Positions 1 through 62,699 are shown, counted from the first letter of the stretch. The stretch: 64,000 nucleotides of DNA from Candidatus Omnitrophota bacterium (GCA_043821445.1 JBDRCT010000033.1:5391-69390); one strand, 5' to 3'. Translations and numbers: made by a program. The notes: generated by a model from the sequence alone, not told the origin.

Positions 1-180
1 CATCTCAGGCATAGCAATATCCAACAGAATAAGATCGGGCTGCCACATCTTTGCTTTTTCAAGAGCGCTTATGCCATCCGTTGCGATCTCGACAAGAAAT
101 CCGCGCGATGCGACACGGACCTTCAAGAGCGTCACCACCACAGGCTCATCATCCACAATCAGGATCTTTTTGGGCGCCAT
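1..180 (-). CDS. response regulator receiver-domain protein (N-terminal part only; gene runs off the window start)
   Basis: Minus-strand ATG at 178-180 preceded by AAGGAGG; translation MAPKKILIVDDEPVVVTLLKVRVASRGFLVEIATDGISALEKAKMWQPDLILLDIAMPEM has the CheY-like receiver layout (DD...D...K spacing). Confidence 0.7.
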   Translation of the reverse strand, partial: MAPKKILIVDDEPVVVTLLKVRVASRGFLVEIATDGISALEKAKMWQPDLILLDIAMPEM

Positions 181-183
181 GAT

Positions 184-264
184 CCCTCCTTAATTAAAAA
201 ATAAATCGAAAATTGGGACATTTCAAATCGCCGTTCGGAAAAAGAAAATAAAACTCGGGCGCCA
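184..264 (+). repeat. ~75-bp hairpin element, family CTCCTTAATTAAAAAA...AATTGGGAC...GCCCAAGTC...GACTTGGGCG (copy a, degenerate)
   Basis: Abuts the RBS/start codon of the response-regulator gene; 12-bp direct repeat GGGCGCCATGAT at 172-183 and ~253-264. Confidence 0.55.
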
Positions 265-1002: not shown

Positions 1003-1076
1003 GGATAATAATATACTACACACAAGCTTTAGTGTTGAAATCTATCCTGACTTTTATTTTCTTTTTTAAAATGGTG

Positions 1077-1128
1077 GTCAGGATTGCCCCAATTTCCACG
1101 CGGTAGAAATTGAAGAGGATTGGGACTC
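1077..1128 (-). repeat. GTCCCAAT(N)...GAAATTGGGGC repeat (family B), intergenic copy
   Basis: Reverse complement reads GAGTCCCAATCCTCTTCAATTTCTACCGCGTGGAAATTGGGGCAATCC; divergent promoter region of nth/adh. Confidence 0.5.
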
Positions 1129-15555: not shown

Positions 15556-15602
15556 GTCCCAATACCTATCAATCTCAAACTTTTTGAAATTGGGGCAATC
15601 CT
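15556..15602 (+). repeat. family B repeat, intergenic copy directly upstream of DUF4870 gene start
   Basis: GTCCCAATACCTATCAATCTCAAACTTTTTGAAATTGGGGCAATCC. Confidence 0.55.
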
Positions 15603-15833
15603 TGTCAATCATTTAGAAAAAAATACAAGACAAGGATAGAAGCTCATTGCGGAATATTGTACCTCACTTCCAGGAAAAAACGATACCCTTCTTTCTCTGG
15701 CAAGATTAAAATAGGCCCTGTTCCGCCGACAATGCTTCACATCCCGTGTTGTGAAATATGAGACTTGCATATCATGCGCCGGATGTGGAAGGGGTGGCCA
15801 CTTGCCCCCCTCATTCCAAAAAAGGAGACAGTT

Positions 15834-25809: not shown

Positions 25810-26619
25810 TTAACCTCTTATCCAGGTTACGATCTCTTGGGCGATCTCTTCGACCGGCGTATCTTTGACGATGCGTGTCTGGCGCTGCTGCTTCGGCAGC
25901 TCCACGCTTGCGAATTTGATGGCGTCGGTCTTGAGCGCCGCGGGGGTCGCCTTCTGAAGGGCCGGCATAATGGTACGCATGTTCGTCATCCCGACCTGAG
26001 GATTGTTCGGCGGTTCCGGAAGATTTCCGGTCGCCCATCCGATCACGGCCGGGGCCCCGGCGCATGTGGAAACCAGGTATTGCCCGCCCTCGATACGCTC
26101 GAGGACCCTGAACGAGCCGTCCGGCTGGACCTTGAGTTCGTCGGCTGCAAGAAATACGTCATGGATCCCGAGCTGTTCGGCGATCATCTGCATCGTGGTC
26201 CCCGCGTCACGCGAAGCGGAGGAACAGCCGCCGAAGACGAGAAGCTTCGTTTTATCAAGTCCCGGGATCTTCTCGATCGCCCCGGCCAGGGCCGCCGCGA
26301 CTTCCCTTGAATCCATAAAACCGCTCGCGGAACCGTCAAGGCACACAAGCTCGAAGGGGACCTTCTGGGCGATGATCATCATGAGCTGTTGGAGCTTGGC
26401 TTTGGGCCCGAGGCTTAGGAGCGTCACCTTGCTTCCCGGGTTCTGCTTCGCGAGATTTGAGGCCTCAAAAAGGGAGTGCCCCGCCCACGGGTCCAGCACC
26501 GAAGGCAGCATCATTTCATTCTTAAGAGCGGGTCCGGTCGCCCCCTGGATCGGCTCCAGCGTCTGGAGCGGGTCCGGCACCAGACTCCCGCAGACTACGA
26601 TGTTAAAAGCTGTCGTCAT
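25810..26619 (-). CDS. etfB: electron transfer flavoprotein beta subunit
   Basis: 269 aa, EtfB fold (MTTAFNIVVCGSLVPD...LLSLGP...). Confidence 0.85.
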   Translation of the reverse strand: MTTAFNIVVCGSLVPDPLQTLEPIQGATGPALKNEMMLPSVLDPWAGHSLFEASNLAKQNPGSKVTLLSLGPKAKLQQLMMIIAQKVPFELVCLDGSASGFMDSREVAAALAGAIEKIPGLDKTKLLVFGGCSSASRDAGTTMQMIAEQLGIHDVFLAADELKVQPDGSFRVLERIEGGQYLVSTCAGAPAVIGWATGNLPEPPNNPQVGMTNMRTIMPALQKATPAALKTDAIKFASVELPKQQRQTRIVKDTPVEEIAQEIVTWIRG

Positions 26620-26627
26620 AATTCCCC

Positions 26628-26697
26628 TCCTTAAAAAATCAATTGAAAATTAGGACTGCCCAAGTCGCCGTTCATTAAAAGAAAACCAAGACTTGGG
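26628..26697 (+). repeat. hairpin element of the same family (copy b)
   Basis: TTAAAAAATCAATTGAAAATTAGGACTGCCCAAGTCGCCGTTCATTAAAAGAAAACCAAGACTTGGGCG; flanked by 14-bp direct repeat CGTCATA(A/G)TTCCCC containing the etfB start codon. Confidence 0.6.
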
Positions 26698-26708
26698 CGT
26701 CATAGTTC

Positions 26709-26929: not shown

Positions 26930-27012
26930 GTCCCAATTCCATTCAATCGAAGCGAAGCTGAGATTGGGGCAATCCTGGCTACCATTTTTCAAAAGAAAAC
27001 AAAAGTCAGGGC
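26930..27012 (+). repeat. family B repeat with downstream hairpin module
   Basis: GTCCCAATTCCATTCAATCGAAGCGAAGCTGAGATTGGGGCAATCCTGGCTACCATTTTTCAAAAGAAAACAAAAGTCAGGGCAG. Confidence 0.5.
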
Positions 27013-27108
27013 AGTATCTTTTTGTTCAAGTACGCTAAAGACCCGGTCTTAAAAGGCTCTCAAAGACCGGGTCTTGGAATGGGTGTGCGGGGACTCACCC
27101 GTCTCTGC

Positions 27109-35582: not shown

Positions 35583-35610
35583 GCAACGCTCAACGGGCAA
35601 CGCACAACGC
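35583..35610. repeat. second CAACGC heptad array
   Basis: GCAACGC TCAACGG GCAACGC ACAACGC, upstream of the DUF1016-SNase gene. Confidence 0.45.
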
Positions 35611-36175: not shown

Positions 36176-38029
36176 TTAATTGATATTGGAATGTAACCCG
36201 CCGGAACCGGCGCGGAAATCGACGTTCGTAAGATCGCATCCCTCTTCGCGCGCGTAGGCGCAATTCCAGAGGCAGGCCGCACAGTGGATGCATTTCTCGC
36301 GGTCAAAGAGGGGCACCCCGCCGTCGGAACCCGCGGTGATGGCCTGGCCGGAGCACATTTCGATGCAGATCTTGGTGCGGCATTTCTGGCACTTGCCGGC
36401 ATCCATGAAAATGATGTGGTCCGCATACCCGTCCGCGGCCTGGACTTTCCCGCCCAAAAGCAGCGCATCCTGGTGGGAGACCAAAAGCTTGCCGTCGTAT
36501 GGGATCTTGGGCCACCCGGCAGCGTCCATCAAAGCGTCATGCATCGAAGTATTCGTCTCGTTCGCTTCCTTGCAGGCTTTTTCGATCACTTCCGGAGTGA
36601 CCTTGCCTTTGTAATATTTTTCGAGCGAAGGGACCCGCGCGTAAACAGGTTTGAGTGTCGCGGGAATATTAAGGAGCCCGTTCGTGAACCCCGCCATTCC
36701 CATTCCCATCATCCCGAGCACAAAATTATGGCTGAAACCGTCGCGTGCTTTCTCGGCGATCTTGTTATCTTTCTCGACCCAGCTCGAGCGGCGGGCCTTT
36801 AAATACGTTGCTTCAAGATTTTCCTTGGTGAAAGGTTTCTTCTCTTTCAAAAGCCGGACCATGCCTTCTGCAAGCTGAACGCCTGTCGTCCAGGCCTCAT
36901 CGACCCCGGAGCCTTTGAGCATATTCGTACTGCCGGAACCTTCGCCGATACGGGCGAATCCGTCGCCCACGATGAAAGGCTCGCCGCGCTTGCCGGCTTC
37001 CTGAAGGCTCTTTCCGCCCCAGGACTTCAACGTCGCGCCCTCGAGATGTTTCCAGAGCTTGGGGTGCTGCATCCAATGCTGAAGATAACGGTAGGCCGAG
37101 CGCATCGGGTTATCGAGCCAGGACGGGACAAAAATACCGAGGGACGCCATCCGGTTGGGATAGACATAAAGAAAACCGAAGATCTCCGGCTCCGGAAAGC
37201 CGAACGTGTGAATGACGGTGCCCGGTTCGAGTTGGGTATTCTCAGGAAGTTCCACCACGGCCTTCATCCCGAGCGCCCACTCGCGCTGATGATTTCCTTC
37301 CGGGAGTCCGAGCTTCGTATCCAGGTTCTGCCCCACGGGCCCGTAAGGCCCGTCCCCGATCACGGTGAATCCCGCGTGAATATCCATACCGGGCATAAAA
37401 GACCCGGTGGGTTTCCCGGATTTCTCAACACCCTGGTCCGCGAGCCTGACCCCGGCCACACGATTGCTGTCAAAAAGCGGTTCCTTCACAGGCATCCCGG
37501 GCCACACCTGGACAAGCCCCGAGCCCATGAGATTCGACCCGAGCCACTGCGTGAACTGGCCCATGGAAAGCACCCACCCGCCGTGTTTGGCCATAAAAGG
37601 CGGGATAAAAGGGAGCCGGAACGCGTGATCTTTATACCAGGGAAGGATGAAACCGAAGGTGCGGAAAAACCAGTCGACGAGTTTTAAGACCCAGGAACGA
37701 CGGCTCGCGCCCACGGGATCGAGAAGATAATAGACCTCTTCATGCTTCACGGGATGCGCCATCGGGATCTGGGCAAGTTCCTCGGCCGTGAACGCGGCCT
37801 TGATCCCCTTCGCCTCGGTCACGATCCCTGAAACGCCGAACCCGATATCATCGGAGCGTTCATAACAGATCACCTGAAGCGGCATGCCGGGCATGGCCTT
37901 GCTTTGGAAATGTTCGGCCGCGGGGTCTTCCGCCATGGCCTTCGCGAGTGTGTGAAGAAATCCCGCGCTCGCCGGCCCGAACCCTACGCAAACAACATCC
38001 ACATCCATCTTCTGACGTTCAACGGTCAT
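36176..38029 (-). CDS. electron-transfer-flavoprotein:quinone oxidoreductase (ETF-QO) with 4Fe-4S domain
   Basis: 617 aa; N-terminal FAD motif VVCVGFGPASAGFL; UQ-binding region; C-terminal CQKC...CIHCAAC ferredoxin cysteines. Confidence 0.85.
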   Translation of the reverse strand: MTVERQKMDVDVVCVGFGPASAGFLHTLAKAMAEDPAAEHFQSKAMPGMPLQVICYERSDDIGFGVSGIVTEAKGIKAAFTAEELAQIPMAHPVKHEEVYYLLDPVGASRRSWVLKLVDWFFRTFGFILPWYKDHAFRLPFIPPFMAKHGGWVLSMGQFTQWLGSNLMGSGLVQVWPGMPVKEPLFDSNRVAGVRLADQGVEKSGKPTGSFMPGMDIHAGFTVIGDGPYGPVGQNLDTKLGLPEGNHQREWALGMKAVVELPENTQLEPGTVIHTFGFPEPEIFGFLYVYPNRMASLGIFVPSWLDNPMRSAYRYLQHWMQHPKLWKHLEGATLKSWGGKSLQEAGKRGEPFIVGDGFARIGEGSGSTNMLKGSGVDEAWTTGVQLAEGMVRLLKEKKPFTKENLEATYLKARRSSWVEKDNKIAEKARDGFSHNFVLGMMGMGMAGFTNGLLNIPATLKPVYARVPSLEKYYKGKVTPEVIEKACKEANETNTSMHDALMDAAGWPKIPYDGKLLVSHQDALLLGGKVQAADGYADHIIFMDAGKCQKCRTKICIEMCSGQAITAGSDGGVPLFDREKCIHCAACLWNCAYAREEGCDLTNVDFRAGSGGLHSNIN

Positions 38030-38048: not shown

Positions 38049-38110
38049 CTCAACGCACAACGCGCAACGCTATGTTTTTGCGTTGACCGTTGAGCGTTGT
38101 ACGTTGCGCT
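38049..38110. repeat. heptad (CAACGC-N) tandem array folded as an inverted-repeat hairpin between acyl-CoA dehydrogenase and ETF-QO genes
   Basis: CTCAACGC ACAACGC GCAACGC tatgttttt GCGTTGA CCGTTGA GCGTTGT ACGTTGC. Confidence 0.5.
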
Positions 38111-38112
38111 TG

Positions 38113-40221
38113 TTAAAGCGGATAATCGAGCGCTTCCGGGATCATGATCTGCGCCACGGCTTCCGCGGCACGGTCTTTGGAAAAACGCAGCCCTGAGAAA
38201 CATGCGTCGGTCTTCGCGCGCAACTCCGCGAAAGCCTTAAGTTCCGGGCTCGCCGCGGAGCAACAACCGCTCGAAGCCTGATAGCCGTAAACAAGCTCGG
38301 CGCAGATCTTTCCGACTTCGCCTGCGGCCCGCGCGGACTGAACGCCGCTCAAGTCCGAATAAAAATTCACCACGCCGGCAAGGCCTTCCGCGAGCGTGGG
38401 ATTCTCAGGCCCCTTCTTCTCGAGCTCGAGCGTATCGAGGATGAGCTGGCGCGCGCCCAGGAGCCACGCAAGCGCATCGGTCATCGGGAACATGACGCCC
38501 TGGCGCTGACCGCCGTAAAGCGTTTTCCCGTTCACATCTTTGTGGGACTGGAGATACTCGAGGGACCAGAGCCAAAGTTCCATCGCCCCGGCGAGGGCGC
38601 AGGCGCCCATTTCCGGTTTGCGTTTTGCGATCTCGCGAAGGTCCTTGATCCAGTTCTTGAACTGAGCGAGGAAAATATCATTTTCCATCGTACGGCTCAT
38701 CTGGAGGCGCTGCACACATTCAGGCCCTTCGTACGTCGCCTCGAGCTGGGCATCCGACCATTTCTGCGTGAGGAATCCCGGGCAATCTTCCGTGATCCCG
38801 TAACCGCCCATCAAACTCACGGCCTCGCGCAACATGGTCGCGCCGTAGCCCGTATTCCAGAGCTTCCCGGCCGGGCAATACACATCCGCAAGCGACTCCT
38901 TGATGAGATACTGGACCAGGAGATCGCCTTCGAGTTCCGCCACGCGTTTTGCGTCACGTTTCGCTTCGGGCTGAGCCATGAGCGCGATATATTCGAGCGC
39001 TTTCTTGCGCGGCTCCGCGAACGCCTTCATCTGCGCGCGAGCGCCCTTGATCCCCTGCTCGGCGAAGATCTTGTCCTTTTCGTGTTCCATCACATCGAAG
39101 GCGTCGAAAAGCCGGGCCCCTTCGAATCCGAGGGACGCGCCCGCTTCCCCGGTCGCCCAAACATCGACGAGACGGTGGCAGGGGTCCTCTTTCTGCTGGA
39201 TCCCAAGATCATAGCGGGGCGTTCCGGCAGAAACCGAGCCTCCGCCGCGGAAACGCGTGCGCTGGTAACGGATCACGGGCTCGATCGCGGAAAGAAGCTT
39301 CGCGGTGGTCATGATCCCCACCGTGACGCGCGTCCTGCGGAAAACCGCTTCGATCACTTCGCTGTTGTTGAAATTCGGGATGATCACTCCGTCTTTAACG
39401 GTGTATCCGCCGATGATGCGGCTGGCCGGGACCTTCAAATTAAAGATCGGATCGTGGGTGCTGGAAAGCTGGTGCACAAGTTTCAGGGTCGGGGCGCCCC
39501 GGTCATAAAGTCCGGGATCATTTTCCTCGAGGATCACCATGCAGCTGGATTTGATGCGGGGGTCATCGCTGTCCACAGACGCGGTGACAAAATTCGCGTA
39601 GCCCATGTTCGTAATAAAACGGCCGCGTTTTTCGACTTGAAGGACCGGCTCCTGGCCTTCTTTCCACTCCGCGACACGGATACGTCCCGAAAGCATCCCG
39701 GCGTCCACACCGACATAAGGGAGCGGTTCGGTGAGCGCGAAAGAACCCCGGATGATCTTTCTTTTCTCTCCGGCTTTCGGAGGGACACAGCCGCCCATGT
39801 ATTTCTGGATCTGCTCGGGAGTACCTTTTTCATGGATGGGTTCAAGTGCGAGATTATTCGCAAGACTCGCCGTCGCGGCGCCCGCGTCCACCCAGCAAAG
39901 TTCGAACGCGATCATGGCAAGCACGAGGTTCTTGGGCCCCTCAATATAGCCCCCCTGTTCGGGTTCCATGAAAGCAGCCGTAATGCCGGCTTCGTCAAAA
40001 GACTTGAGCATGGCGGCCTTCTCGGGCGTCCACTCATGGGTGTGGCGCTGTTTGTCCGCCACCATACGGGCCACCACCCCGCGCGCTACGGCACGGGTCG
40101 ACTGGACCACCATCTGGAGGTCATAACGGTCCGTGAATCGCCACATGATCTGGCGGACATCGTCCCCCGGGAGCGTGCTCATCAAGGCTCTTTTCTCAGC
40201 ATTGGCAGTACTCATGGACAT
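38113..40221 (-). CDS. large acyl-CoA dehydrogenase-family protein
   Basis: 702 aa with ACAD N-, middle (beta-barrel) and C-terminal helical domains; adjacent to ETF-QO. Confidence 0.75.
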   Translation of the reverse strand: MSMSTANAEKRALMSTLPGDDVRQIMWRFTDRYDLQMVVQSTRAVARGVVARMVADKQRHTHEWTPEKAAMLKSFDEAGITAAFMEPEQGGYIEGPKNLVLAMIAFELCWVDAGAATASLANNLALEPIHEKGTPEQIQKYMGGCVPPKAGEKRKIIRGSFALTEPLPYVGVDAGMLSGRIRVAEWKEGQEPVLQVEKRGRFITNMGYANFVTASVDSDDPRIKSSCMVILEENDPGLYDRGAPTLKLVHQLSSTHDPIFNLKVPASRIIGGYTVKDGVIIPNFNNSEVIEAVFRRTRVTVGIMTTAKLLSAIEPVIRYQRTRFRGGGSVSAGTPRYDLGIQQKEDPCHRLVDVWATGEAGASLGFEGARLFDAFDVMEHEKDKIFAEQGIKGARAQMKAFAEPRKKALEYIALMAQPEAKRDAKRVAELEGDLLVQYLIKESLADVYCPAGKLWNTGYGATMLREAVSLMGGYGITEDCPGFLTQKWSDAQLEATYEGPECVQRLQMSRTMENDIFLAQFKNWIKDLREIAKRKPEMGACALAGAMELWLWSLEYLQSHKDVNGKTLYGGQRQGVMFPMTDALAWLLGARQLILDTLELEKKGPENPTLAEGLAGVVNFYSDLSGVQSARAAGEVGKICAELVYGYQASSGCCSAASPELKAFAELRAKTDACFSGLRFSKDRAAEAVAQIMIPEALDYPL

Positions 40222-40395: not shown

Positions 40396-41082
40396 TCAAT
40401 TTCTTGGATTCCCGATACCCGCCCCGTCACAAATGATGGCGCGCCGCCTCAATTCGAAGAAGCATTTCACGCAACAAAGCACATCGGACGCCGCATTGTG
40501 CTGATCTTCAAAATCCACATCGAACAGCTTGACATGAAGCTCGGATAATTTCGGCCACTTGTTGCCGCCCAAACTTTTCATTTCTTTTCCAGGATGGTAG
40601 TTTGGACGGCCCCAATCTCCGCTTTGCTTCGATTGATTGGTATTGGGACCGTACGACCTCGGGATCTTGCAAAACTTCGTCGAGCTTTTCATGGTGCATA
40701 TTTTTTTGATCGTCCGTAGCCCATCCGGCATTCCCCGGCGCAAAAGCTCCACCCGGACCATTTTTTCATCGAAATCCAGATTATGCGCCACAAGACACGC
40801 GACACCCGGGATCGCTCCGGAGAACTCCCTCAAAACCTCCGCGGCCGGGCGCCCTTCTTTCAATGCCCTTTCGGTGCTGATGCCGTGGATCGCCGTCGCG
40901 CTTTCGGGGATCACGAAACCTTCCGGTTGGATCATGTGATCGTGAAGCTCAAGCTGTGTCCCGTCTTCGTCAAAAAGCGCCCAGGCGATCTGAACGATGT
41001 GCGGCCAGTTCCCGAGATCGGAAACGGGGGCCTTCCAGCTTTTCGGCAATCCGGTCGTTTCCGTATCAAAAAAAAGATACAT
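40396..41082 (-). CDS. DnaQ-like 3'-5' exonuclease (DEDDh family) carrying an in-frame repeat insertion
   Basis: MYLFFDTETTG Exo I motif, HNLDFD Exo II, NAASDV Exo III; ~30-aa segment (GPNTNQSKQSGDWGRPNYHPGK) is encoded by a copy of the GTCCCAATACC...ATTGGGGC repeat. Confidence 0.7.
   Translation of the reverse strand: MYLFFDTETTGLPKSWKAPVSDLGNWPHIVQIAWALFDEDGTQLELHDHMIQPEGFVIPESATAIHGISTERALKEGRPAAEVLREFSGAIPGVACLVAHNLDFDEKMVRVELLRRGMPDGLRTIKKICTMKSSTKFCKIPRSYGPNTNQSKQSGDWGRPNYHPGKEMKSLGGNKWPKLSELHVKLFDVDFEDQHNAASDVLCCVKCFFELRRRAIICDGAGIGNPRN
40600..40649 (-). repeat. family B repeat inserted in-frame inside the exonuclease CDS
   Basis: Minus-strand GGTCCCAATACCAATCAATCGAAGCAAAGCGGAGATTGGGGCCGTCC translated as GPNTNQSKQSGDWGRP. 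Confidence 0.55.
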
Positions 41083-41193
41083 TTTTACACCTTTATTGAG
41101 ACGCGTTTTCCGGCATGACAATATTTGTAAGTAATCGCCTTCCAGGAGGGAAAACCGGAAAAGATATTTGCGTTTAAGAGATCTTTCATGACG

Positions 41194-41805
41194 TTACTTC
41201 CCGGCCACGAATTCGAGCACCACATCTGCTTGCTTAGCCGCGGCAACACTGACCCGTGGCGATAAAGCTGGTGCTTTTTCGATGTCCGACGCAAGGTCCC
41301 CGATCAGAATGAGGTTCGGTTTGAGCTTTCGGACCTTCAGATCATCACTGGAGCCCCATCCCCCCAGTCCGGAAGCGGAGACGATCAATTTTCCGGTCGG
41401 GAGTATTCCGGACACGAGCATGCTCTTGGCTTCGGCCCGGTCGAGACACTCCACCACGACGTCGCAGTTCCGGAATATTTCCGGGATATTGGCGGGTTCT
41501 AGCTTCACGGACAGCATTTGAAGTTCGAGCCCGGGATTGATGCGGAGGAGATTGGTCCGTAATGCTTCGACTTTTTCCATCCCGACCTGATCCGCGAAAT
41601 AGAATTGCCGGTCCAAATTGGAAGGATCGATGCGATCGAAATCCACGATCGTAAAATGCCTGAAACCGACCCGGACGAGGCAGGCCGCGCAATTGGAGCC
41701 CAGGCCGCCCGCGCCCGCAATGCCGATCTTCGCTTTTTCGATCTTCGCGAGCTTCGCTTCACCGAGCTTTTCAATAAGGTCCTGCCGGAACGCGTCCATC
41801 ATCAA
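41194..41805 (-). CDS. thiF: ThiF/MoeB-family adenylyltransferase (ThiS activation)
   Basis: IGIAGAGGLGSN Rossmann/ATP motif, E1-like fold; last gene of the thiS-G-H-F string. Confidence 0.75.
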   Translation of the reverse strand: MMMDAFRQDLIEKLGEAKLAKIEKAKIGIAGAGGLGSNCAACLVRVGFRHFTIVDFDRIDPSNLDRQFYFADQVGMEKVEALRTNLLRINPGLELQMLSVKLEPANIPEIFRNCDVVVECLDRAEAKSMLVSGILPTGKLIVSASGLGGWGSSDDLKVRKLKPNLILIGDLASDIEKAPALSPRVSVAAAKQADVVLEFVAGK

Positions 41806-42998
41806 ATTTGCATCCAGTCTTTCAACACCGGCTGGTACCCTTTGGCGACGAGCATCGCTTTGAACTCTTCGACGCTCCGCGGGTCCGAGATCTCAAACTG
41901 GGAAGCATCCTCCCCTTCCGCCCCGACTTTTATTTTCTTTTGATCAACGGTAGTCGGGACGGCCCCAATTTCAACCCCGTTAAAATTGATAGGTATTGGG
42001 ACCGGAGATCCGAGCGTGTGGCCGCCGACGCGTGTCGTCGAGCCCGCCGACATGCGCGTGACCCCGAGAGGCAAAAGATGCTCGCGCAGCGAAGCGCTTT
42101 CCCGCGTGGAAAGCGTGATCCCGATCCGCGGCAGGAAAAGCCTCAAGGCCACGATGATCTGCGTCATGTTCCTGTCGCTTACCTCCGTCATTTCTTTGAA
42201 ATCCCCGGCATGCGGCCTCAGACGCGGAAGCGAAACTCCGATCTCGACCTCTCCGTAGCGGTCCTGCAAATACCGGGCGTGAAGGCCCACCCAGAAAACT
42301 TCTTTCCGCCAATCATTCAATCCCAGAAGCGCCCCGACGTTCACGCTTCTCATTCCATTCTTCGCGGCGCGCTCCGGCGCGTCAAGCCGGAAGCGGAAAT
42401 CTTTTTTAGGCCCCGCCTTATGCACCTGCTCATAAACCTCCGCATCATAGGTCTCCTGATATAAGGTCAATCCATCGACACCTGAACGTACGAGGTCCGC
42501 GTATTCCTCTTCCGTGAGTGCGTAGATCTCGACGGCAAGAGAGCTGAAATATTTTTTGAGTACTTTGAGGCATTTTTTGATATAGGACAGCGGACTTTTT
42601 TCCCTCGAATCTCCCGTCAGGATAAGAAGATGCTCGATCCCTGTCGAAGCGATGAACGCGGCCTCTTTTTCCACTTCTCCCAAAGTCAGTGTTCTCCGAG
42701 GTATTTTGTTCAGGGTATTGAACCCGCAATAAGCGCACTCATTCTCGCAATAATTCGAAAGATACATCGGCGTGTAAAGCTGGAGGGTCCTGCCAAAGTG
42801 CATCAGGGTCAAGGCATGCGCCCTTTGCGCCATGGGCTCTAACAATCTTTCCGCAGCCGGAGAAAGAAGCGCCAAAAGACGCGCGGGATCTTGCGCGTCG
42901 GAATGGATCGAACGCTCAACGTCTTGGAGTGAAATCTCACGGAAGATCTTCTCGGAAGGAAGGTCCTTATATTTCAGAAGGGTATCGTAGTAGCTCAT
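41802..42998 (-). CDS. thiH: 2-iminoacetate synthase (tyrosine lyase, radical SAM) with in-frame repeat insertion near C-terminus
   Basis: CENECAYCGF radical SAM motif, ThiH-specific C-terminus (...QFEISDPRSVEEF...PVLKDW); ~25-aa insertion VPIPINFNGVEIGAVPTTVDQ encoded by repeat copy at ~41952-42003. Confidence 0.8.
   Translation of the reverse strand: MSYYDTLLKYKDLPSEKIFREISLQDVERSIHSDAQDPARLLALLSPAAERLLEPMAQRAHALTLMHFGRTLQLYTPMYLSNYCENECAYCGFNTLNKIPRRTLTLGEVEKEAAFIASTGIEHLLILTGDSREKSPLSYIKKCLKVLKKYFSSLAVEIYALTEEEYADLVRSGVDGLTLYQETYDAEVYEQVHKAGPKKDFRFRLDAPERAAKNGMRSVNVGALLGLNDWRKEVFWVGLHARYLQDRYGEVEIGVSLPRLRPHAGDFKEMTEVSDRNMTQIIVALRLFLPRIGITLSTRESASLREHLLPLGVTRMSAGSTTRVGGHTLGSPVPIPINFNGVEIGAVPTTVDQKKIKVGAEGEDASQFEISDPRSVEEFKAMLVAKGYQPVLKDWMQI
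41952..42003 (-). repeat. family B repeat inserted in-frame inside thiH
   Basis: Minus-strand GTCCCAATACCTATCAATTTTAACGGGGTTGAAATTGGGGCCGTCCCGAC translated as VPIPINFNGVEIGAVPT (different frame from the exonuclease copy). Confidence 0.55.
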
Positions 42999-43111
42999 GG
43001 CCGTCTCGTTGTGAGGTAAAAGAGAATTCTGAACTTTTTCGTTCTACTCCATGATGCATTAAGAATTTTCGGGGATCCGTAAACGCGCTCCGAAGGTCGA
43101 GCGGGCAAGGT

Positions 43112-43260
43112 GGCACTCAAAAGACCCGTCGTCACCGGCGGATCGATCCTTCCAGCGAGAATCGACCGCCTTCGAGTCTCGCTCCCGGGATCCGCCTACA
43201 AAACAAGGCGGAACCAAGCTCCCAGGAGCTCGAACGCTGCCTCTTGGTCTTTTGAGTGCC
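43112..43260. repeat. ~150-bp element closed by a perfect 15-bp inverted repeat, between thiG and thiH
   Basis: GGCACTCAAAAGACC (43112-43126) ... GGTCTTTTGAGTGCC (43246-43260); internal sub-hairpins GCGAGA...TCTCGC and CCGCC...GGCGG. Confidence 0.5.
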
Positions 43261-43354
43261 GAGCGAGACCAGAGGCGCGAATGAGTTTTTCCTCGCTGGG
43301 GAAAAACGAATGGCGGTAAAGGAGCCCCGGAAAATTCTCTTTTCCATTACTCGT

Positions 43355-44137
43355 TCATTTTGTTTCATGCAAAAAACCGGTCAAGGGCGAGGAGGCGCTG
43401 GCACCGCTTCCGGCAGAAGCAAGTCCTGCAAGATGGGCGGCACGACCCGCGCTTACAGCCTCCTTGAAAGCTCGGGCCATAGTTACGGGGTCCCGCGCGA
43501 TCGCGATCGCCGTATTCACAAGCACTGCCGCGCAACCCATTTCCATACATTCGCAGGCGTCCGAAGGACTGCCCAAGCCCGCGTCCACGATCACGGGCGC
43601 CTTGATCTCACGCACCAGGATCTCCACAAGCTCCCGGGTCTTCACGCCTCGGTTACTGCCGATAGGCGACCCGAGAGGCATGACCGCCGCCGCGCCCGCA
43701 TCCACCATGCGTTTGGCCATGGAAAGGTCCGGGCTCATGTAAGGAAGCACGATGAATCCTTCTTTGGCGAGGATCTCCACCGCTTTGAGCGTTTCAAGAT
43801 TATCCGGCAAAAGATATTTATGATCCTGAACCACTTCGATCTTGATCCAGTTCCCCTGCCCGCCCGCTTTTGCGAGTCTCGCGATCCGCACAGCCTCATC
43901 CGCGTTTCTTGCGCCGGAAGTGTTGGCCATGAGCATGCAGGCCTTTGGAATATATTCCAAAATATTGTCCGCCTGAGAACCGAGATCGACGCGCCGGAGC
44001 GCAACGGTCACGATGTCGGGTTGGGCGGCCTCCAGAGCTTTTTGCATGAGGGAATAGCTCGAGAATTTTCCGGTTCCGATCAAAAGACGGCTCTTAATCG
44101 AACGGCCGCCGAGCGCAAGCAGGTCTTCCATGGTCAT
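43355..44137 (-). CDS. thiG: thiazole synthase
   Basis: 260 aa; ThiG TIM-barrel motifs ([27 protein letters not shown]). Confidence 0.9.
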
Positions 44138-44334
44138 CCGCCTCCGACAAAACTGACGATCTCGACCCTATCCTGATCCTTGAGCGCGATCTTGGGCCAG
44201 TCCTCTTTGGAGATGATGCTGAAGTTGTGCTCGACCACGATCTTGTCGGGACACAATCCCTTGGCCGCGACAAGCGCGTCGAGACTCAAGGACTTATCGA
44301 TCGATTCTTGTTTGCCGTTCAGGGTGAGGATCAT
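44134..44334 (-). CDS. thiS: sulfur-carrier protein ThiS
   Basis: 66 aa ending in GG; overlaps thiG start by 4 nt. Confidence 0.8.
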
Positions 44335-44431
44335 GTACTCTTTTCCTTATTCGTGGGAACCATGTGCGTTATCTTAAACGAATTTTGTCTCTATTGAAAG
44401 GCCGCGGATACCCCCTGTGATTGTCGATATT

Positions 44432-45361
44432 TTAGATCTTTAATTTCGAGAAGTTAACACGCACGTCCTCCGCGGAGGCATGGAGCGCTTTCCGTTCACC
44501 GTCGCTTAACGGAATCTCGACGATCTTCTTCACGCCTTTGCGCCCGAGTTCCACCGGCACGCCGCAATAAACATCGCTCAATCCGTACTGCCCTTTGAGA
44601 TAAACACAGGACGGGATCACTTCTCCGGTATCCTGAAGGATCGCACGGACCATTTTCACGACAGAAGAAGATGGTGCATAATAAGCGCTGCCGGTCTTAA
44701 GGAGTTTTACGATCTCTGCCCCGCCGTCACGGGTCCTCTGGTTGATCTCCTCAATCGTTGCGGCGTCCAAAAGTGTGGTGACCGGCTTTCCGTTGACCTG
44801 GGTCAGCTCCGGCACCGGGACCATTTGATCGCCGTGCCCGCCGAGCACCGTCGCCCTGACATCGGAAGGTTTGCAGCCAAGTTTTTCCGCGATGAAATAA
44901 GCGTACCTTGACGAATCCAGTTCGCCGGCCATCCCGATCACGCGTTCGAAAGGAAATCCCGACTTTTTCTGAGCGAGCCAGGTCATCACATCAAGCGGGT
45001 TCGTGACCATCACCAGGACCGCATTCGGAGAATACCGGGCACACTCCGTCACGATCCCTCCGACGATCTCGGCATTCTTGAAAAGCAGGTCGTCCCGGCT
45101 CATGCCGGGCTTGCGGGCAAGTCCCGCTGTGATCACGACGACGTCTGAACCAGCCGTGTCTTGATAACTGTTCGTGCCGGTGATCTTGGAGAGAAATCCT
45201 TCGACCGGCGCGGATTCCATCATATCCAGGGCCTTGCCCTGCGGGAGTCCTTCCACAATATCGATAAGAACAACGTCCGCGAGATTTTTCTCGACGATGC
45301 GTTGCGCGGCTGTCGCGCCGACAAAACCTGCTCCGACAACGGTCACTTTGAAATTCGTCAT
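44432..45361 (-). CDS. mdh: malate dehydrogenase (LDH-like MDH family)
   Basis: VTVVGAGFVGAT NAD motif, substrate-binding Arg and catalytic His region (VLGGHGDQMV). Confidence 0.85.
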   Translation of the reverse strand: MTNFKVTVVGAGFVGATAAQRIVEKNLADVVLIDIVEGLPQGKALDMMESAPVEGFLSKITGTNSYQDTAGSDVVVITAGLARKPGMSRDDLLFKNAEIVGGIVTECARYSPNAVLVMVTNPLDVMTWLAQKKSGFPFERVIGMAGELDSSRYAYFIAEKLGCKPSDVRATVLGGHGDQMVPVPELTQVNGKPVTTLLDAATIEEINQRTRDGGAEIVKLLKTGSAYYAPSSSVVKMVRAILQDTGEVIPSCVYLKGQYGLSDVYCGVPVELGRKGVKKIVEIPLSDGERKALHASAEDVRVNFSKLKI

Positions 45362-45464
45362 AATACCATCCTCCGTTAAAAGCGCTCTTAAGGAACCAGG
45401 AACATGTTTTCGCGTTCACGGATCGCTCCGTGAAGACCTTTTTTATATCAAAAAAGAACAGGGA

Positions 45465-45704
45465 TTAGTAGTTAAAAAGGTCCCGGTGTGCGAATTTTTG
45501 TTCGGGGAGCGCGTTGTGCAAGGCGCTCAGGATCTTGGCCTTGGCCCGGACCGTAAGGCGCCTCCCCTTGCGTGCCTTTTGCACCACCTTGTGAGACAGC
45601 TGCTCGGTCGAGGCCGCAACAAGCGCGTGGTTTGAAAGCCCATGCTTGGCCATAAGGGCATCCAGGGGCTGCGCACCGAGGTCGTTCGTTCCCTTGATCG
45701 TCAT
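45465..45704 (-). CDS. small conserved hypothetical protein
   Basis: 79-aa ORF directly downstream of rho (4-nt overlap). Confidence 0.45.
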   Translation of the reverse strand: MTIKGTNDLGAQPLDALMAKHGLSNHALVAASTEQLSHKVVQKARKGRRLTVRAKAKILSALHNALPEQKFAHRDLFNY

Positions 45705-46720
45705 TGTAACTTGCTCACGGCAGTGAGAAGGTCTTTTGTCACAGGATATTTCTTGAACTGTTCGATCAACGCGCTGATTGCTTCGATGGGCTTAAGCCCG
45801 GCCAAGGCGCGGCGTATCCGGCGCGACGGTTCCAGTTCCTGTGGCGTAAAAAGAAGTTCTTCCTTACGCGTTCCGCTTTTGGATATGTCCACCGCCGGAT
45901 AAATACGCTGGTTCGAGATCTCACGCGATAGAAAGATCTCCATATTTCCCGTTCCTTTGAATTCTTCAAAAATGAGCTGGTCCATGCGGCTCCCGGTATC
46001 CACAAGGATCGTCGCGAGGATCGTAAGCGACCCTCCGTGTTCGATCTTGCGGGCCGATCCGAAGATCCGCCGCGGCACTTCCATGGAACGCGCATCCACG
46101 CCCCCGGAAAGTGTCCGGCCGCTGGAACGTTGTTCCGCATTATGCACGCGCGCCAAACGGGTCAAAGAATCGACTAGGACCATCACGTTCGCGCCGGCCG
46201 CAACCTCGCGATACACTTGTTGCATGAGCTCCCGGGCGGTCTGGATATGATGGTCATAAGTTTGGTCGGATGAAGACCACCGGACTTCGGCCGTCACGCT
46301 GCGACGGAAGTCCGTGACCTCCTCGGGCCTTTCATCGATCAAAAGACAATAAAGCTTCATCTCCGGCCGGCTTTTTGCCACGGCCTGACAAAGATGCTTG
46401 AGAAACGTTGTTTTTCCGGAACCCGGAGGCGCCACGATCAGTCCACGCTGACCCATCCCGATCGGTGTGATAAGATCCATGACGCGCATCGTAAGTTCCT
46501 GAGAGCCGTCTTCAAGCCGGATCCGTGGCGAGGGATCGACGGCCGTACTGGCAAAAAACTTCTGCTCATCTTCAGCCACCACGCGCTGAGGTTCCCCATG
46601 CGGCGGTCGGTGAGCATGACGATGGGAATGGGAACCCCGGTTGGGGCGACGCTCGCCGCGGTGTCTTTGATCGGTATTGGGACCACGCCCTGAACGCTCC
46701 CGGTGTTCAAAGTTTCTCAT
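45701..46720 (-). CDS. rho: transcription termination factor Rho, atypical (no N-terminal OB-fold RNA-binding domain; Arg-rich N-tail)
   Basis: Q-loop, Walker A GSGKTT, R-loop and C-terminal Rho motifs all present from LTMRVMDLITPIGMGQRGLIVAPPGSGKTT onward, but only ~75 residues precede them and they are Arg/His-rich low complexity; start overlaps ABC-F stop by 14 nt. Confidence 0.8.
   Translation of the reverse strand: MRNFEHRERSGRGPNTDQRHRGERRPNRGSHSHRHAHRPPHGEPQRVVAEDEQKFFASTAVDPSPRIRLEDGSQELTMRVMDLITPIGMGQRGLIVAPPGSGKTTFLKHLCQAVAKSRPEMKLYCLLIDERPEEVTDFRRSVTAEVRWSSSDQTYDHHIQTARELMQQVYREVAAGANVMVLVDSLTRLARVHNAEQRSSGRTLSGGVDARSMEVPRRIFGSARKIEHGGSLTILATILVDTGSRMDQLIFEEFKGTGNMEIFLSREISNQRIYPAVDISKSGTRKEELLFTPQELEPSRRIRRALAGLKPIEAISALIEQFKKYPVTKDLLTAVSKLQ
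46634..46684 (-). repeat. partial family B repeat forming part of the rho 5' coding region
   Basis: GGTCCCAATACCGATCAA... encodes GPNTDQ within the Arg-rich N-tail of Rho. Confidence 0.45.
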
Positions 46721-48542: not shown

Positions 48543-48679
48543 ATTAGGGTTGATGATAACCGCCCAATTTCCGCCCAAGTCTTTGTTTTCTTTTAATCAA
48601 TGGCGACTTGGGCGGCACTGATTACCTTCATTTTGAAACAGAATCAAGTGCCGCTACGTAGAAATTGATAGGTGTTGGG
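48543..48679 (-). mobile_element. 137-bp composite repeat element inserted at the pyk/ABC-F junction with a 26-bp flanking direct duplication
   Basis: Contains GCCGCCCAAGTCGCCATTGATTAAAAGAAAACAAAGACTTGGGCGG hairpin (reverse orientation) plus TCCCAACACCTATCAATTT module; flanked by ACGGTCATTGTCTAAGATTCTTTTCC (48517-48542) and ACAGTCATTGTCTAAGATTTTTTTCG (48680-48705). Confidence 0.6.
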
Positions 48680-48683
48680 ACAG

Positions 48684-49703
48684 TCATTGTCTAAGATTTT
48701 TTTCGGTAAATTTAATGATCTGGCTCATCATTTCAACGCATTGAACGGGATAAAGGCCAGCGGCAGATTCGGCGGAAAGCATCACGTAGTCCGTTCCATC
48801 GAGAATTGCGTTCGCCACATCACTGACTTCGGCGCGGGTCGGGATGGGATGTTCCGTCATGCTCTCAAGCATCTGGGTCGCCGTGATCACGAATTTCTTC
48901 GCCTTATTGCATTTCTTAATGATCTTCTTCTGAATCGAGGGCACTTCATAAATCGGAACAGAGATCCCCATATCCCCGCGTGCGACCATGATCCCTTCGC
49001 AAACGCTTATGATTTCATCGATATTTCGGATCCCTTCCCGGTTCTCAATCTTGGCGATCACGTCGCATTCGTGGGAGTGGCTTTTCAGATGAGACCGGAG
49101 ATCTAAAATATCCCTTTTATTCCGTACGAAAGATTGTGCGATATAATCCACTTTATGCTCGATGCAAAAATGAATGTCCTCCCTGTCCTTCCGGGTCAGC
49201 CCCGTGACATCCAATTGCACGCCAGGCATATTGATTCCTTTGCGTTCTTTGATCGCACCTCCAACGATCACGCGAGTCTTGAGATTTTTTTGATCACGAG
49301 CCTCGACTTTGAGGGCAATAAGACCGTCGTCAATGTAGATAAGCTGGCCTGGTTTGATAGGTCGCAAAGAACCCACCCAATCAAAGGGAATATGGGAATT
49401 TTCTCCGACCGTGTTTTCCGTCGTGAGCCAGAGAATCTGCCGCTTCTTGACCTCGACCGGCTTCTGCCCCTTCAGCTCACCAATCCTCATTCGATAACCT
49501 TCGAGATCTCCCAGGATTTGGATGCGGCGGCGATATTTTTTGTTCAGCGCTCTGATGAGACAGATCTTCTCCCGGTGCTCCGCAAGCGTTCCGTGGGAAA
49601 AATTAAGCCGTACCACATCCATTCCCGCACGCATCATCTGCCGCAGGACATTGGCCCGGCTTGAAGCGGGACCCAGCGTGCAAATGATCTTTGTGCTCGT
49701 CAT
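48684..49703 (-). CDS. pyk: pyruvate kinase (short form lacking C-terminal regulatory domain)
   Basis: [14 protein letters not shown]..., [16 protein letters not shown]+/Mg site motifs; 339 aa. Confidence 0.8.
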
Positions 49704-57457: not shown

Positions 57458-57518
57458 AAAAACTCGCTCAATCGATTCTTGTTTGATTTTTTTTTTGTCG
57501 CTTCGGCATGATCTTCCT

Positions 57519-57589
57519 TAATTAAAAAAATGAATTGGAAATCATGGCTGCCCAAGTCACCCTTATTAAAAAAAACAAAGACTTGGGCG
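57519..57589 (+). repeat. hairpin element of the same family (copy c)
   Basis: AATTAAAAAAATGAATTGGAAATCATGGCTGCCCAAGTCACCCTTATTAAAAAAAACAAAGACTTGGGCG; flanked by CATGAT(C/T)TTCCTT 13-bp direct repeat; between yvcK-like and ptsH. Confidence 0.6.
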
Positions 57590-57618
57590 TCATGATTTTC
57601 CTTGATCAAAATGGGCAA

Positions 57619-62567: not shown

Positions 62568-62680
62568 GTCCCAATACCTATCAATTTTAACGAAGTTGAA
62601 ATTGGGGCTGCCCTGATTACCATTTAGGAAAAGAAAATAAAAATCAGGGCTGTCCCAACTACTCTTTATATAAAAAAATC
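62568..62680 (+). repeat. family B repeat plus hairpin module, abutting the lpxL-family start codon
   Basis: GTCCCAATACCTATCAATTTTAACGAAGTTGAAATTGGGGCTGCCCTGATTACCATTTAGGAAAAGAAAATAAAAATCAGGGCTGTCCCAAC; three GTCCCAA/TTGGGAC-type units. Confidence 0.55.
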
Positions 62681-62699
62681 TAAAGTTGGGATAGGCGGA

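What the first reader, a model, noticed from the sequence alone, without database searches (positions are those of the whole stretch)
40600..46684. RPE-like behaviour: a second repeat family (GTCCCAATACCTATCAAT...GAAATTGGGGC) is inserted in-frame into thiH, a DnaQ-like exonuclease and rho
The ~50-bp motif occurs intergenically at 1077-1128, 15556-15602, 26930-27012 and 62568-62680. It also occurs inside three coding regions without breaking the frame. In thiH (41952-42003) it encodes VPIPINFNGVEIGAVPTTVDQ in an otherwise conserved C-terminus. In the exonuclease (40600-40649) it encodes GPNTNQSKQSGDWGRPNY between Exo II and Exo III. At the rho 5' end (46634-46684) it encodes GPNTDQ... The copies are read in different frames and all are stop-free. 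This is the behaviour described for Rickettsia palindromic elements. Intergenic copies abut start codons (lpxL-family, DUF4870 gene). Spurious upstream ORF extensions such as LIGIGT come from translating the repeat.
Basis: partly seen in the sequence, partly recalled or inferred. Interest (0 to 1): 0.7.

Follow-up and report, generated by a model that had tools for sequence, protein, structure and literature searches.

The report
In-frame hairpin-pair repeat in Omnitrophota genes
An 84-base selfish DNA repeat made of two hairpins is scattered through this Omnitrophota genome and its relatives. Copies sit between genes and also inside working genes, where each adds a floppy 28-amino-acid loop, much like the palindromic elements of Rickettsia.

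Summary
The unit is about 84 nt, not about 50. It has two head-to-tail hairpins, A (GTCCCAAT...ATTGGGGC) and B (variable covarying stem, loop TACCATTT..AAAAGAAAATAAAA).

The window, from a Candidatus Omnitrophota MAG, holds:
- six full copies
- one 18-nt remnant
- four diverged relatives

Orthologue alignments and filled-versus-empty DNA show that thiH and the DEDDh exonuclease each gained exactly 84 nt (28 codons). The closest orthologues lack the insert. AlphaFold2 gives low confidence only over the inserts.

The window's rho keeps only an 18-nt remnant, but two relatives carry full copies in the same N-terminal region.

A scan of one genome per species found the motif in 21 assemblies: 20 labelled Omnitrophota/Omnitrophica or unclassified "uncultured bacterium", and one labelled proteobacterium. 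Other in-frame hosts include ArgC, KdtA, two histidine kinases and an AddA-like helicase.

A 3-nt YRG direct repeat flanks copies, and its first base pairs with the junction between the hairpins. There are no terminal inverted repeats. The top strand carries a conserved G·T wobble. I infer single-strand mobilisation by an enzyme that recognises hairpins, but no transposase was found.

It works like RPEs and intragenic REP dimers but belongs to neither family.

The parts
41919..42002 (-). Full 84-nt element inside thiH, read at offset 0. It encodes VPIPINFNGVEIGAVPTTVDQKKIKVGA (ThiH residues 333-360).
   Evidence: CM 103.3 bits. Absent from the closest orthologues. The empty site in L001 differs by exactly 84 nt. 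AF2 pLDDT is below 50 only at residues 332-362.
40566..40649 (-). Full 84-nt element inside the DEDDh (DnaQ-like) 3'-5' exonuclease gene, read at offset 2. It encodes GPNTNQSKQSGDWGRPNYHPGKEMKSLG (residues 145-172).
   Evidence: CM 95.1 bits. Only P0121 and P0122 carry it. Empty sites in L001 and L003 differ by exactly 84 nt. AF2 pLDDT is below 50 at residues 146-170.
46666..46683 (-). 18-nt remnant (GTCCCAATACCGATCAAA) of the 5' arm of hairpin A, in the Arg/His-rich N-terminal region of the rho-like gene. It encodes GPNTDQ.
   Evidence: The window has about 21 nt more than L001 at this point. Full copies lie in the same region in L108 (P0244, 91 bits) and, about 5 codons away, in L057.
1043..1126 (-). 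Full intergenic copy between divergent genes (endonuclease III-like, 328-1023 minus strand; Zn-dependent dehydrogenase, plus strand).
   Evidence: CM 94.5 bits. Pfam of the neighbours. An orthologous copy is present in L005.
15556..15638 (+). Full intergenic copy, 83 nt, TA-linker type. It lies 21 nt from the start of the DUF4870 gene and is antisense to both flanking genes.
   Evidence: CM 83.7 bits. Pfam DUF4870.
26930..27013 (+). Full intergenic copy in a divergent intergenic region.
   Evidence: CM 92.9 bits.
62568..62693 (+). Full A+B copy (62568-62651) followed directly by a third B-like hairpin (62652-62693), sharing the 2-nt linker. It overlaps the spuriously extended start of the lipid-A acyltransferase ORF.
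   Evidence: CM 103.4 bits. Sequence. Pfam Lip_A_acyltrans. L054 has only one A+B unit at the orthologous site.
48569..48685 (-). Diverged composite copy: hairpin A 5' arm, an extra hairpin, then a B-type hairpin. It lies between the ABC-F gene and the pyruvate-kinase-like gene.
   Evidence: CM 48.6 bits. Sequence. Orthologous copies are present in L001, L108 and L109.
26611..26702 (+). Relative that keeps mainly hairpin B: a remnant of a reversed hairpin-A end (..ATTAGGAC) plus a forward B-type hairpin, lying against a gene start.
   Evidence: CM 41 bits. Sequence.
57501..57592 (+). Relative that keeps mainly hairpin B, immediately upstream of the HPr gene start.
   Evidence: CM 40.7 bits.. 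Pfam PTS-HPr.
177..264 (+). Degenerate relative that keeps mainly hairpin B. In L005 the orthologous site also holds a reversed full A+B copy nested at its linker.
   Evidence: CM 10.1 bits, E 3.4, weak on its own. B-loop motif at 229-252. Alignment with L005.
41802..42998 (-). Host gene thiH (2-iminoacetate synthase), 398 aa against 370 aa in most listed orthologues.
   Evidence: TIGR02351, 482 bits, in two stretches. Pfam Radical_SAM + BATS, with BATS stretched over 134 residues for an 88-position profile.
40396..41082 (-). Host gene: DEDDh 3'-5' exonuclease, 228 aa.
   Evidence: Pfam RNase_T, interrupted after profile position 124. P0121 is 100% identical.
45701..46720 (-). Host gene: rho-like ATPase that lacks the N-terminal RNA-binding domain.
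   Evidence: NCBIfam PRK09376, 371 bits, profile positions 127-411 of 413 only. Pfam ATP-synt_ab only.

Best explanation
This is a family of small, non-autonomous, selfish DNA repeats. In the one-genome-per-species scan it was found in 21 assemblies. Twenty are labelled Omnitrophota/Omnitrophica or unclassified 'uncultured bacterium'. One 3.5-kb contig is labelled proteobacterium.

Structure. The unit is 84 nt with two head-to-tail hairpins of about 40 nt joined by a 2-nt linker. Hairpin A has an invariant stem (GTCCCA/TGGGGC) with a fixed T·G wobble. Hairpin B has a conserved A-rich loop and a stem that differs between subfamilies but stays paired.

Insertion (shown). Insertion adds exactly 84 nt. 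Because 84 nt is 28 codons and several frames of the element carry no stops, copies that land in tolerant places in genes survive as 28-residue segments. These places are loops, inter-domain linkers and low-complexity tails. The segments are probably disordered. Copies that land elsewhere are presumably lost by selection.

Mobility (inferred, not shown). The element probably moves as single-stranded DNA. It would be handled by a trans-acting enzyme of the HUH/Y1 type that recognises hairpins, as for IS200/IS605 elements and REP-RAYT. The insertion point, a YR dinucleotide before a G, would be read by base-pairing with the junction dinucleotide between the two hairpins. That same dinucleotide also pairs with the element's own 3' end. 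This would account for the matching 3-nt YRG at both ends, the tandem and nested arrays that share linkers, and the presence/absence of exactly 84 nt at each of four compared sites.

Sub-confidences: about 0.9 that it is a mobile repeat tolerated in frame; about 0.35 for the single-strand, guide-type mechanism.
For: Repeat and structure.
- Searches show copy numbers far above chance.
- Across 141 aligned copies, 91.5% of pair cells are paired, against 75.6% in shuffles (0 of 500 reach it) and 31-45% in slid controls. All 23 pairs show double changes.

In-frame insertion.
- Orthologue alignments.
- Filled-versus-empty DNA differs by exactly 84 nt at three CG-type sites (thiH, the exonuclease, the 3' end of the exonuclease gene) and one TG-type site.
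- AF2 low confidence is confined to the inserts.
- Other hosts with intact flanking Pfam domains: ArgC, KdtA, two histidine kinases, and an AddA/UvrD-like helicase carrying a reversed copy.
- The same gene is hit at different positions in different genomes: three positions for the exonuclease, two for rho.

Mobility.
- Copies 98-99% identical lie in unrelated flanks within one genome.
- Insert-bearing ThiH proteins fall in at least four places in the ThiH tree.

Distribution.
- No hits in viral contigs.

Mechanism clues.
- Flanks are random except -2 (Y), -1 (R) and +1 (G in 60 of 63).
- The flanking dinucleotide equals the terminal one in 93 of 135 copies (permutation mean 28.6, maximum 43).
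- Its first base is Watson-Crick to the junction base in 120 of 135 copies for the flank and 124 of 135 for the terminus.
- The T·G wobble is present in 118 of 141 copies.
- The top strand folds better than the bottom strand as ssDNA in 4 of 4 copies tested.
- Intergenic copies show no orientation preference relative to neighbouring genes.
- In IS200/IS605 elements, guide sequences at the foot of the hairpins read the cleavage sites. REP binding by TnpA-REP needs a stem mismatch, and cleavage is at a dinucleotide (PMC3333891).
Against: - No transposase of any kind was found. ORFs lying between inverted copies are ordinary host genes. Only about 1% of each genome was held, so this is a weak negative.
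- A 3-nt direct repeat is also what a classical DDE transposase would leave.
- The geometry differs from IS608. There the guides lie 5' of each hairpin and the cleavage sites lie some distance away; here the linkers abut the stems.
- The second linker base follows an odd rule (A with A, T with T, G with C) that simple pairing does not explain.
- The alignment used for the pair counts was fitted to the model's structure, which inflates pairing somewhat.
- That the inserts are translated is inferred. No proteomic data were available.
- Detection of genic copies required an open frame, so copies that break a frame were not counted.
Confidence: 0.7

Rival explanations
1. It is a classical miniature inverted-repeat element moved by a DDE transposase. 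That enzyme prefers YRG targets and duplicates 3 bp on insertion. The hairpins are incidental.
For: Conserved YRG on both sides with random sequence beyond. Insertion adds 84 nt, which equals an 81-nt element plus 3 nt. In some subfamilies the 3' end is a weak inverted match to the 5' end (TCCCAA).
Against: There is no conserved terminal inverted repeat. The 3' arm of hairpin B varies between subfamilies (TGAC, TTGTC, CAAAC, CCGAC) while the 5' end is invariant. A target-derived duplication should not covary with an internal base, yet the first flank base pairs with the junction base in about 90% of copies. No parent insertion sequence was seen.
Confidence: 0.2
2. The repeats are mainly host-useful cis elements that have been retained by selection: for example protein-binding sites, mRNA-stabilising or terminator hairpins, or portable translation starts. 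The genic copies are side effects.
For: Many intergenic copies lie within a few tens of bases of gene starts. Some intergenic copies are kept at orthologous sites in several genomes. The relatives that keep mainly hairpin B carry a ribosome-binding site, an ATG and a 17-23 codon ORF on the reverse strand, just upstream of real starts (my reading of the sequence).
Against: Orientation relative to neighbouring genes is uniform (18/18/13/13), which does not fit an RNA-level role. There is no run of T after either stem (sequence). No Rfam family matches. Presence is patchy between close relatives and near-identical copies sit at unrelated loci, which points to mobility. This reading does not exclude mobility.
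Confidence: 0.1
3. The extra peptides are ancestral or convergent protein features, or MAG assembly artefacts, and not insertions of repeat DNA.
For: None beyond the bare fact that the ORFs stay open.
Against: The same 84 nt occurs between genes and inside unrelated genes at 80-94% identity. The closest orthologues lack it. The same inserts are seen in independent NCBI, JGI, ENA and Logan assemblies. The peptide matches only 19 representatives among 1.84 billion proteins, and 18 of the 19 are 33-97 aa. At 84 nt the element is shorter than typical sequencing reads (my general knowledge; the read lengths of these assemblies were not checked).
Confidence: 0.01
4. The genic copies are removed before or during translation, in the manner of an intron or translational bypass, so the mature proteins are unchanged.
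For: The element is strongly structured on the coding strand in thiH, the exonuclease and rho.
Against: Every genic copy examined keeps the frame and has no stop. The modal length is a multiple of three (69 of 141 copies are 84 nt). The frames used in genes are ones that are open in that subfamily. A reversed copy is also tolerated in frame, which a strand-specific RNA removal signal would not explain. Caveat: frame-breaking genic copies were not looked for.
Confidence: 0.03

Closest known systems
Rickettsia palindromic elements (RPEs; Ogata et al. 2000, as summarised in PMC10969869)
   Same: - High-copy palindromic repeat with no coding capacity for its own mobility.
- Found both between genes and in frame inside unrelated housekeeping genes.
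- Adds a peptide segment compatible with the host fold.
- No transposase known.
   Different: - Different phylum: Omnitrophota, not Rickettsia.
- 84 nt with two separate head-to-tail large-loop hairpins, against about 100-150 bp for the classical RPE families.
- Linker/flank pairing rule and shared-linker tandem arrays.
- Sequence relatedness to RPE families could not be tested here.
Intragenic REP dimers (GTAG- and CGTC-tagged REPs; Di Nocera et al. 2013, PMC3733652), including Opitutus terrae in the PVC superphylum and R. conorii RPE-4/RPE-6
   Same: - Short stem-loop repeats.
- Often paired with 1-2 bp between partners.
- Some lie inside ORFs, where dimers encode 20-30 aa.
- The same gene can be hit more than once.
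- Replication and repair genes are among the hosts.
   Different: - No GTAG or CGTC tag. Only YR|G is conserved, and position -3 carries no information.
- Loops of about 23 nt, against 2-20 nt (GTAG) or 4-5 nt (CGTC).
- The two hairpins are different modules in head-to-tail order, an arrangement described as absent or rare for REPs.
IS200/IS605 ends and REP-RAYT systems (HUH Y1 single-strand transposition; PMC3333891)
   Same: - Hairpins rather than terminal inverted repeats.
- Strand asymmetry (conserved wobble or mismatch in the stem).
- The flank base correlates with an internal base at the foot of the hairpins, as guide sequences do.
- Presence/absence of exactly 84 nt at four compared sites.
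   Different: - No Y1 transposase was found.
- The recognised flank is 2-3 nt, not 4-5 nt, and abuts the stem.
- One junction dinucleotide appears to serve both ends.
- A matching trinucleotide at both ends resembles a target duplication, which IS200/IS605 elements do not make.

Membership tests
Rickettsia palindromic elements (RPE) | Repeat occurs in frame inside functional protein-coding genes as well as between genes | tested here: met
   thiH and the exonuclease in the window. ArgC, KdtA, histidine kinases, an AddA-like helicase and rho in relatives.
Rickettsia palindromic elements (RPE) | Inserted peptide lies where the host fold can tolerate it (surface loop) | tested here: met
   AF2 models have mean pLDDT 87. 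The only long segments below 50 are residues 332-362 (ThiH) and 146-170 (exonuclease), apart from the exonuclease C-terminal tail 222-228. These coincide with the inserts. This is a prediction, not a solved structure.
Rickettsia palindromic elements (RPE) | Sequence belongs to one of the described RPE families of Rickettsia (about 100-150 bp palindromes) | not testable with these tools
   No RPE consensus sequences were available. The host phylum (Omnitrophota), the length (84 nt) and the two-hairpin layout all differ.
REP / REPIN-RAYT | Imperfect palindrome of 20-40 nt with a conserved GTAG (or CGTC) tetranucleotide at the foot | tested here: not met
   The flank logo conserves only -2 (Y), -1 (R) and G. 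Position -3 has information content 0.14. Each hairpin is about 40 nt with a loop of about 23 nt.
REP / REPIN-RAYT | Units paired mainly in inverted (head-to-head or tail-to-tail) orientation | tested here: not met
   The A and B modules are head to tail in essentially all full copies, and arrays are direct.
REP / REPIN-RAYT | Associated RAYT (Y1 HUH) gene flanked by the repeats | tested here: inconclusive
ORFs between inverted copies are host genes. Only a small part of each genome was held.
IS200/IS605-derived miniature elements | Hairpins at both ends, no terminal inverted repeats, structure specific to one strand | tested here: met
   U·G in 118 of 141 copies; top strand more stable in 4 of 4 copies. 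The 3' arm varies while the 5' arm is invariant.
IS200/IS605-derived miniature elements | Insertion 3' of a specific short target read by an internal guide, with no target duplication | tested here: inconclusive
   The first flank base pairs with the junction base in 120 of 135 copies, which resembles a guide. But the matching YRG at both ends cannot be told apart from a 3-bp duplication with the four filled/empty pairs available.
Classical MITE (DDE transposase) | Conserved terminal inverted repeats matching a parent insertion sequence | tested here: not met
   There is no conserved inverted match between the ends across subfamilies. No parent element was seen.
Classical MITE (DDE transposase) | Target-site duplication of fixed length | tested here: inconclusive
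   A 3-nt YRG direct repeat is present, but it covaries with an internal base.

The most novel reading that the evidence does not exclude
The element is a new type of miniature single-strand transposon whose target is set by its own 2-nt junction between two hairpins. Subfamilies with different junctions (AA, CG, AG, TG) would then home to different YR|G sites. CG-junction copies are enriched inside genes. The mobilising enzyme is an as yet unrecognised HUH-type or other hairpin-recognising protein of Omnitrophota. In that case the family would be a natural, minimal, base-pair-programmed insertion system that routinely remodels proteins by 28-residue loops.
Probability: 0.25. Interest if true: 0.8.

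Novelty: new variant of a known kind. Interest (0 to 1): 0.62.

Why it matters
This gives a second well-documented, independent case of selfish DNA routinely living in frame inside essential genes. It comes from an uncultivated phylum far from Rickettsia.

Exact filled and empty sites were recovered. The same genes are hit repeatedly at different positions. Some genomes hold copies that look recent.

The linker rule gives a concrete, testable handle on how such hairpin repeats choose their targets. That question remains open for RPEs and for CGTC-type REPs, which still lack a known transposase (PMC3733652).

Practical consequences:
- The element explains spurious ORF extensions and small false ORFs in Omnitrophota MAG annotations.
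- It explains length outliers in otherwise conserved proteins.
- The covariance model can be used to mask it.

Tried and rejected
- Transposase search.
- ORFs between inverted copy pairs in L082, L071 and L078 are ordinary genes, judged from their translations: a CrcB-like membrane protein, a flavin-reductase-like protein, EF-Tu and lipoproteins. None looks like a transposase.
- Viral contigs: 0 matches to the motif.
- Rfam: nothing at gathering thresholds in the window. Only microRNA hairpin noise far below threshold on a copy.
- Peptide census. The 34-aa insert peptide searched against 1.84 billion representatives gave only 19 hits, 18 of them 33-97 aa. This did little to count host proteins, because clusters at 50% identity are usually represented by members without the insert. 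It does show that the peptide is not a protein domain.
- RNA-level cis element: rejected as the main explanation because orientation relative to neighbouring genes is uniform.
- Intrinsic terminator: rejected because no run of T follows either stem.
- IHF-site reading of TATCAAT..: considered from memory of the consensus. The 3' TTR part does not fit. Not pursued.
- Literature: no paper in the searchable library combines Omnitroph* with MITE, REP or palindromic-element terms.
- Single ancient thiH insertion with precise losses versus repeated hits at one site: not resolved. The B-half peptide is shared by all five insert-bearing ThiH proteins, which favours one origin. The A-loop subtype and the host tree disagree, which favours conversion or re-insertion.


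Full report
**Source.** The ThiH and exonuclease proteins of the window are 100% identical to proteins annotated from a Candidatus Omnitrophota MAG on a 149.5-kb contig.

**Is the repeat real?**
- The 18-mer GTCCCAATACCTATCAAT, with up to 3 mismatches, occurs 7 times against 0.05 expected.
- It consists of two hairpins.
  - Hairpin A is GTCCCAAT..ATCAAT-inner stem-ATTGGGGC.
  - Hairpin B has a 9-bp stem around the loop TACCATTTnnnAAAAGAAAAnAAA.
- RNAalifold on nine copies finds 23 pairs, 12 of them with compensatory changes.
- A covariance model built from these copies finds the following in the window:
  - six full copies (84-103 bits)
  - three diverged relatives (41-49 bits)
  - one weak relative
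- The B-loop motif alone occurs 9 times against 0.15 expected.

**Are the genic copies insertions?**
- *ThiH.*
  - The protein is 398 aa where most listed orthologues are 370 aa.
  - The alignment places a clean 28-residue block between ..HTLGSP and EGEDASQFEISD. The closest orthologues (P0004, P0005, P0007, P0008; 88-91% identical) lack it.
  - At the DNA level the syntenic contig L001 reads ..CATCCCCCGAAGGGGAGG. The window reads ..TCTCCG[84 nt]GAAGGGGAGG.
- *Exonuclease.*
  - It carries a 28-residue block between ..IPRSY and GNKWPKLSELH, shared only with P0122.
  - The empty sites in L001 and L003 read TACG|GCGAT and TACG|GAGAT.
- *Host identities.* TIGR02351 scores 482 bits in two stretches. 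Pfam BATS and RNase_T are interrupted.
- *Structure prediction.* AlphaFold2 with orthologue alignments gives mean pLDDT 87 for both proteins. The only long segments below 50 are residues 332-362 in ThiH and 146-170 in the exonuclease, which are the inserts. The exonuclease C-terminal tail (222-228) is also low.
- *rho.*
  - Only 46666-46683 matches. The window has about 21 nt more than L001 there.
  - P0244 has a complete 28-residue insert at that place, confirmed as a 91-bit copy in its DNA (L108). L057 has another full copy about five codons away.
  - The window's rho therefore holds a decayed remnant.

**Spread.**
- The hits come from 21 assemblies:
  - fifteen are labelled Omnitrophota or Omnitrophica
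  - five are unclassified 'uncultured bacterium'
  - one 3.5-kb contig (L084) is labelled 'uncultured proteobacterium'
- None was found in viral contigs.
- The model finds 141 copies in 646 kb.
  - 91.5% of pair cells are paired, against 75.6% in shuffles and 31-45% when partners are slid.
  - The alignment is model-fitted, which favours pairing.
- Length is modal at 84 nt (69 of 141 copies).
- By a longest-ORF heuristic, 24 of 113 copies lie inside ORFs. A few of these are antisense artefacts.
- Copies checked by Pfam sit in these hosts:
  - ArgC, splitting the dimerisation domain into two stretches
  - KdtA, after the N-domain
  - two histidine kinases
  - an AddA/UvrD-like helicase-nuclease, in reverse orientation
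- A giant ORF that holds two copies was not scanned.
- In other genomes the exonuclease gene carries the element at a second internal site (P0177, P0180, P0194; confirmed in L109) and at its 3' end (P0123, P0157; L001).
- Frames +0, -0 and -1 of the element are open in 48-72% of copies, against about 20% for shuffled sequence.

**Mobility.**
- Some genomes hold copies 98-99% identical in unrelated flanks.
- The window's exonuclease copy is 94% identical to the rho copies of L057 and L108 and is read in the same frame.
- Insert-bearing ThiH proteins fall in at least four places in a tree built without the insert. So either the same nucleotide position was hit repeatedly or the 84 nt was lost precisely several times.

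**Ends and target.**
- In 63 copies of exactly 84 nt, the flanks carry no information except -2 (C/T), -1 (mostly A/G) and +1 after the element (G in 60 of 63).
- The conserved block is therefore 87 nt, while insertion adds 84 nt. A YRG trinucleotide is present on both sides.
- The flanking dinucleotide equals the terminal one in 93 of 135 copies (permutation mean 28.6). The first base of both is Watson-Crick to the second base of the junction dinucleotide between the hairpins, in 120 and 124 of 135 copies.
- The common triplets are TA/AA/TA, CG/CG/CG and CA/AG/CA.
- CG-type copies are enriched in genes: 16 of 24 against 20 of 89, Fisher p = 1e-4.
- Tandem arrays share the linker.
- In L005 a reversed full copy is nested exactly at the linker of the window's degenerate copy at 177-264.
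- The 3' arm varies among subfamilies while the 5' arm is invariant, so there is no conserved terminal inverted repeat.
- A T·G wobble in hairpin A is kept in 118 of 141 copies.
- As ssDNA the top strand folds better than the bottom strand in 4 of 4 copies tested.
- Intergenic copies show no orientation preference relative to their neighbours.

**Interpretation.**
- *Shown:* a mobile, structured 84-nt repeat tolerated in frame.
- *Inferred:* movement through a single-stranded, hairpin-recognised intermediate in which the junction dinucleotide reads both the element's 3' end and the target.
- This follows the principle described for IS200/IS605 guide sequences, and for REP-RAYT with its stem mismatch and dinucleotide cleavage (PMC3333891).
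- The main rival is a DDE-type element that makes a 3-bp duplication. It explains the YRG repeat. It does not explain the covariation with an internal base or the lack of inverted repeats.
- No transposase was found.

**Comparison with what is known.**
- In-frame palindromic repeats are known as RPEs in Rickettsia (PMC10969869).
- They are also known as intragenic GTAG/CGTC REP dimers in several bacteria, including the PVC member Opitutus terrae (PMC3733652).
- This family behaves like those but fails the REP tag, loop-size and dimer-orientation criteria. Its layout also differs from RPEs.
- No paper in the searchable library links Omnitrophota with such repeats.
- I rate it a new variant of a known kind.

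Noticed in passing
window 18328-18363, 25520-25555, 26700-26735 with inverted partners at 18435-18459, 25792-25816, 26821-26845: A different repeat family with terminal inverted repeats (CCCCGTTAGAGATAGGA / ATCTCTAACGGGG), arranged as pairs about 100-270 nt apart. It looks like a classical MITE. One copy abuts the relative at 26611-26702.
   Followed up: no
window 177-264, 26611-26702, 57501-57592: The relatives that keep mainly hairpin B lie directly upstream of minus-strand gene starts. They are flanked by 13-20 nt near-duplicates of the ribosome-binding site plus ATG (for example CATGATnTTCCTT). On the reverse strand each has its own RBS-ATG and a 17-23 codon ORF. In two of the three that ORF ends at a TAA directly against the real RBS. 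I do not know whether these act as leader ORFs or portable starts.
   Followed up: partly
window 45701-46720 (-): The gene annotated as rho matches only positions 127-411 of the 413-position Rho model. It has an Arg/His-rich low-complexity N-terminus instead of the RNA-binding domain. This short form is the one seen in all the relatives aligned.
   Followed up: partly
L110 10371-10439 (ThiH P0045; also P0054 and P0056): Other Omnitrophota ThiH proteins carry a different in-frame 19-aa (57-nt) insert, LRPAKTGTTSSRERAGGKG, at another position. It is flanked by a duplicated LRP and contains a CGGGAAC/GTTCCCG hairpin. No second copy was found in the DNA held.
   Followed up: partly
L041, L073, L036, L067, L028, L091 (assemblies CAYMER and JAZDFE): In these genomes the 84-nt element is embedded in a longer shared context (..GAGGCACGCTA[element]GAAGGACGAGCGGGCAGGGAYTCCGCGAAGCGGAGGA). 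This includes a further CTCCGC-GAA-GCGGAG hairpin and suggests larger composite repeats built from several hairpin modules.
   Followed up: no
window 35568-35610 and 38080-38122: A 43-nt inverted repeat (77% complementary) made of GCAACGC-like motifs brackets the 617-aa ORF at 36176-38029. The syntenic ORF in L001 carries Pfam ETFQO_UQ-bd.
   Followed up: no
L084 (CAILAO010001019.1, 3.5 kb): The only motif hit outside assemblies labelled Omnitrophota or unclassified is a short contig in a MAG labelled 'uncultured proteobacterium'. It is probably a mis-binned contig.
   Followed up: no
L108 3535-3625: In the genome with the full rho insert, a second copy (73.7 bits) overlaps the rho stop codon and the start of the next called 95-aa ORF. 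That small ORF may be an annotation artefact of the repeat.
   Followed up: no
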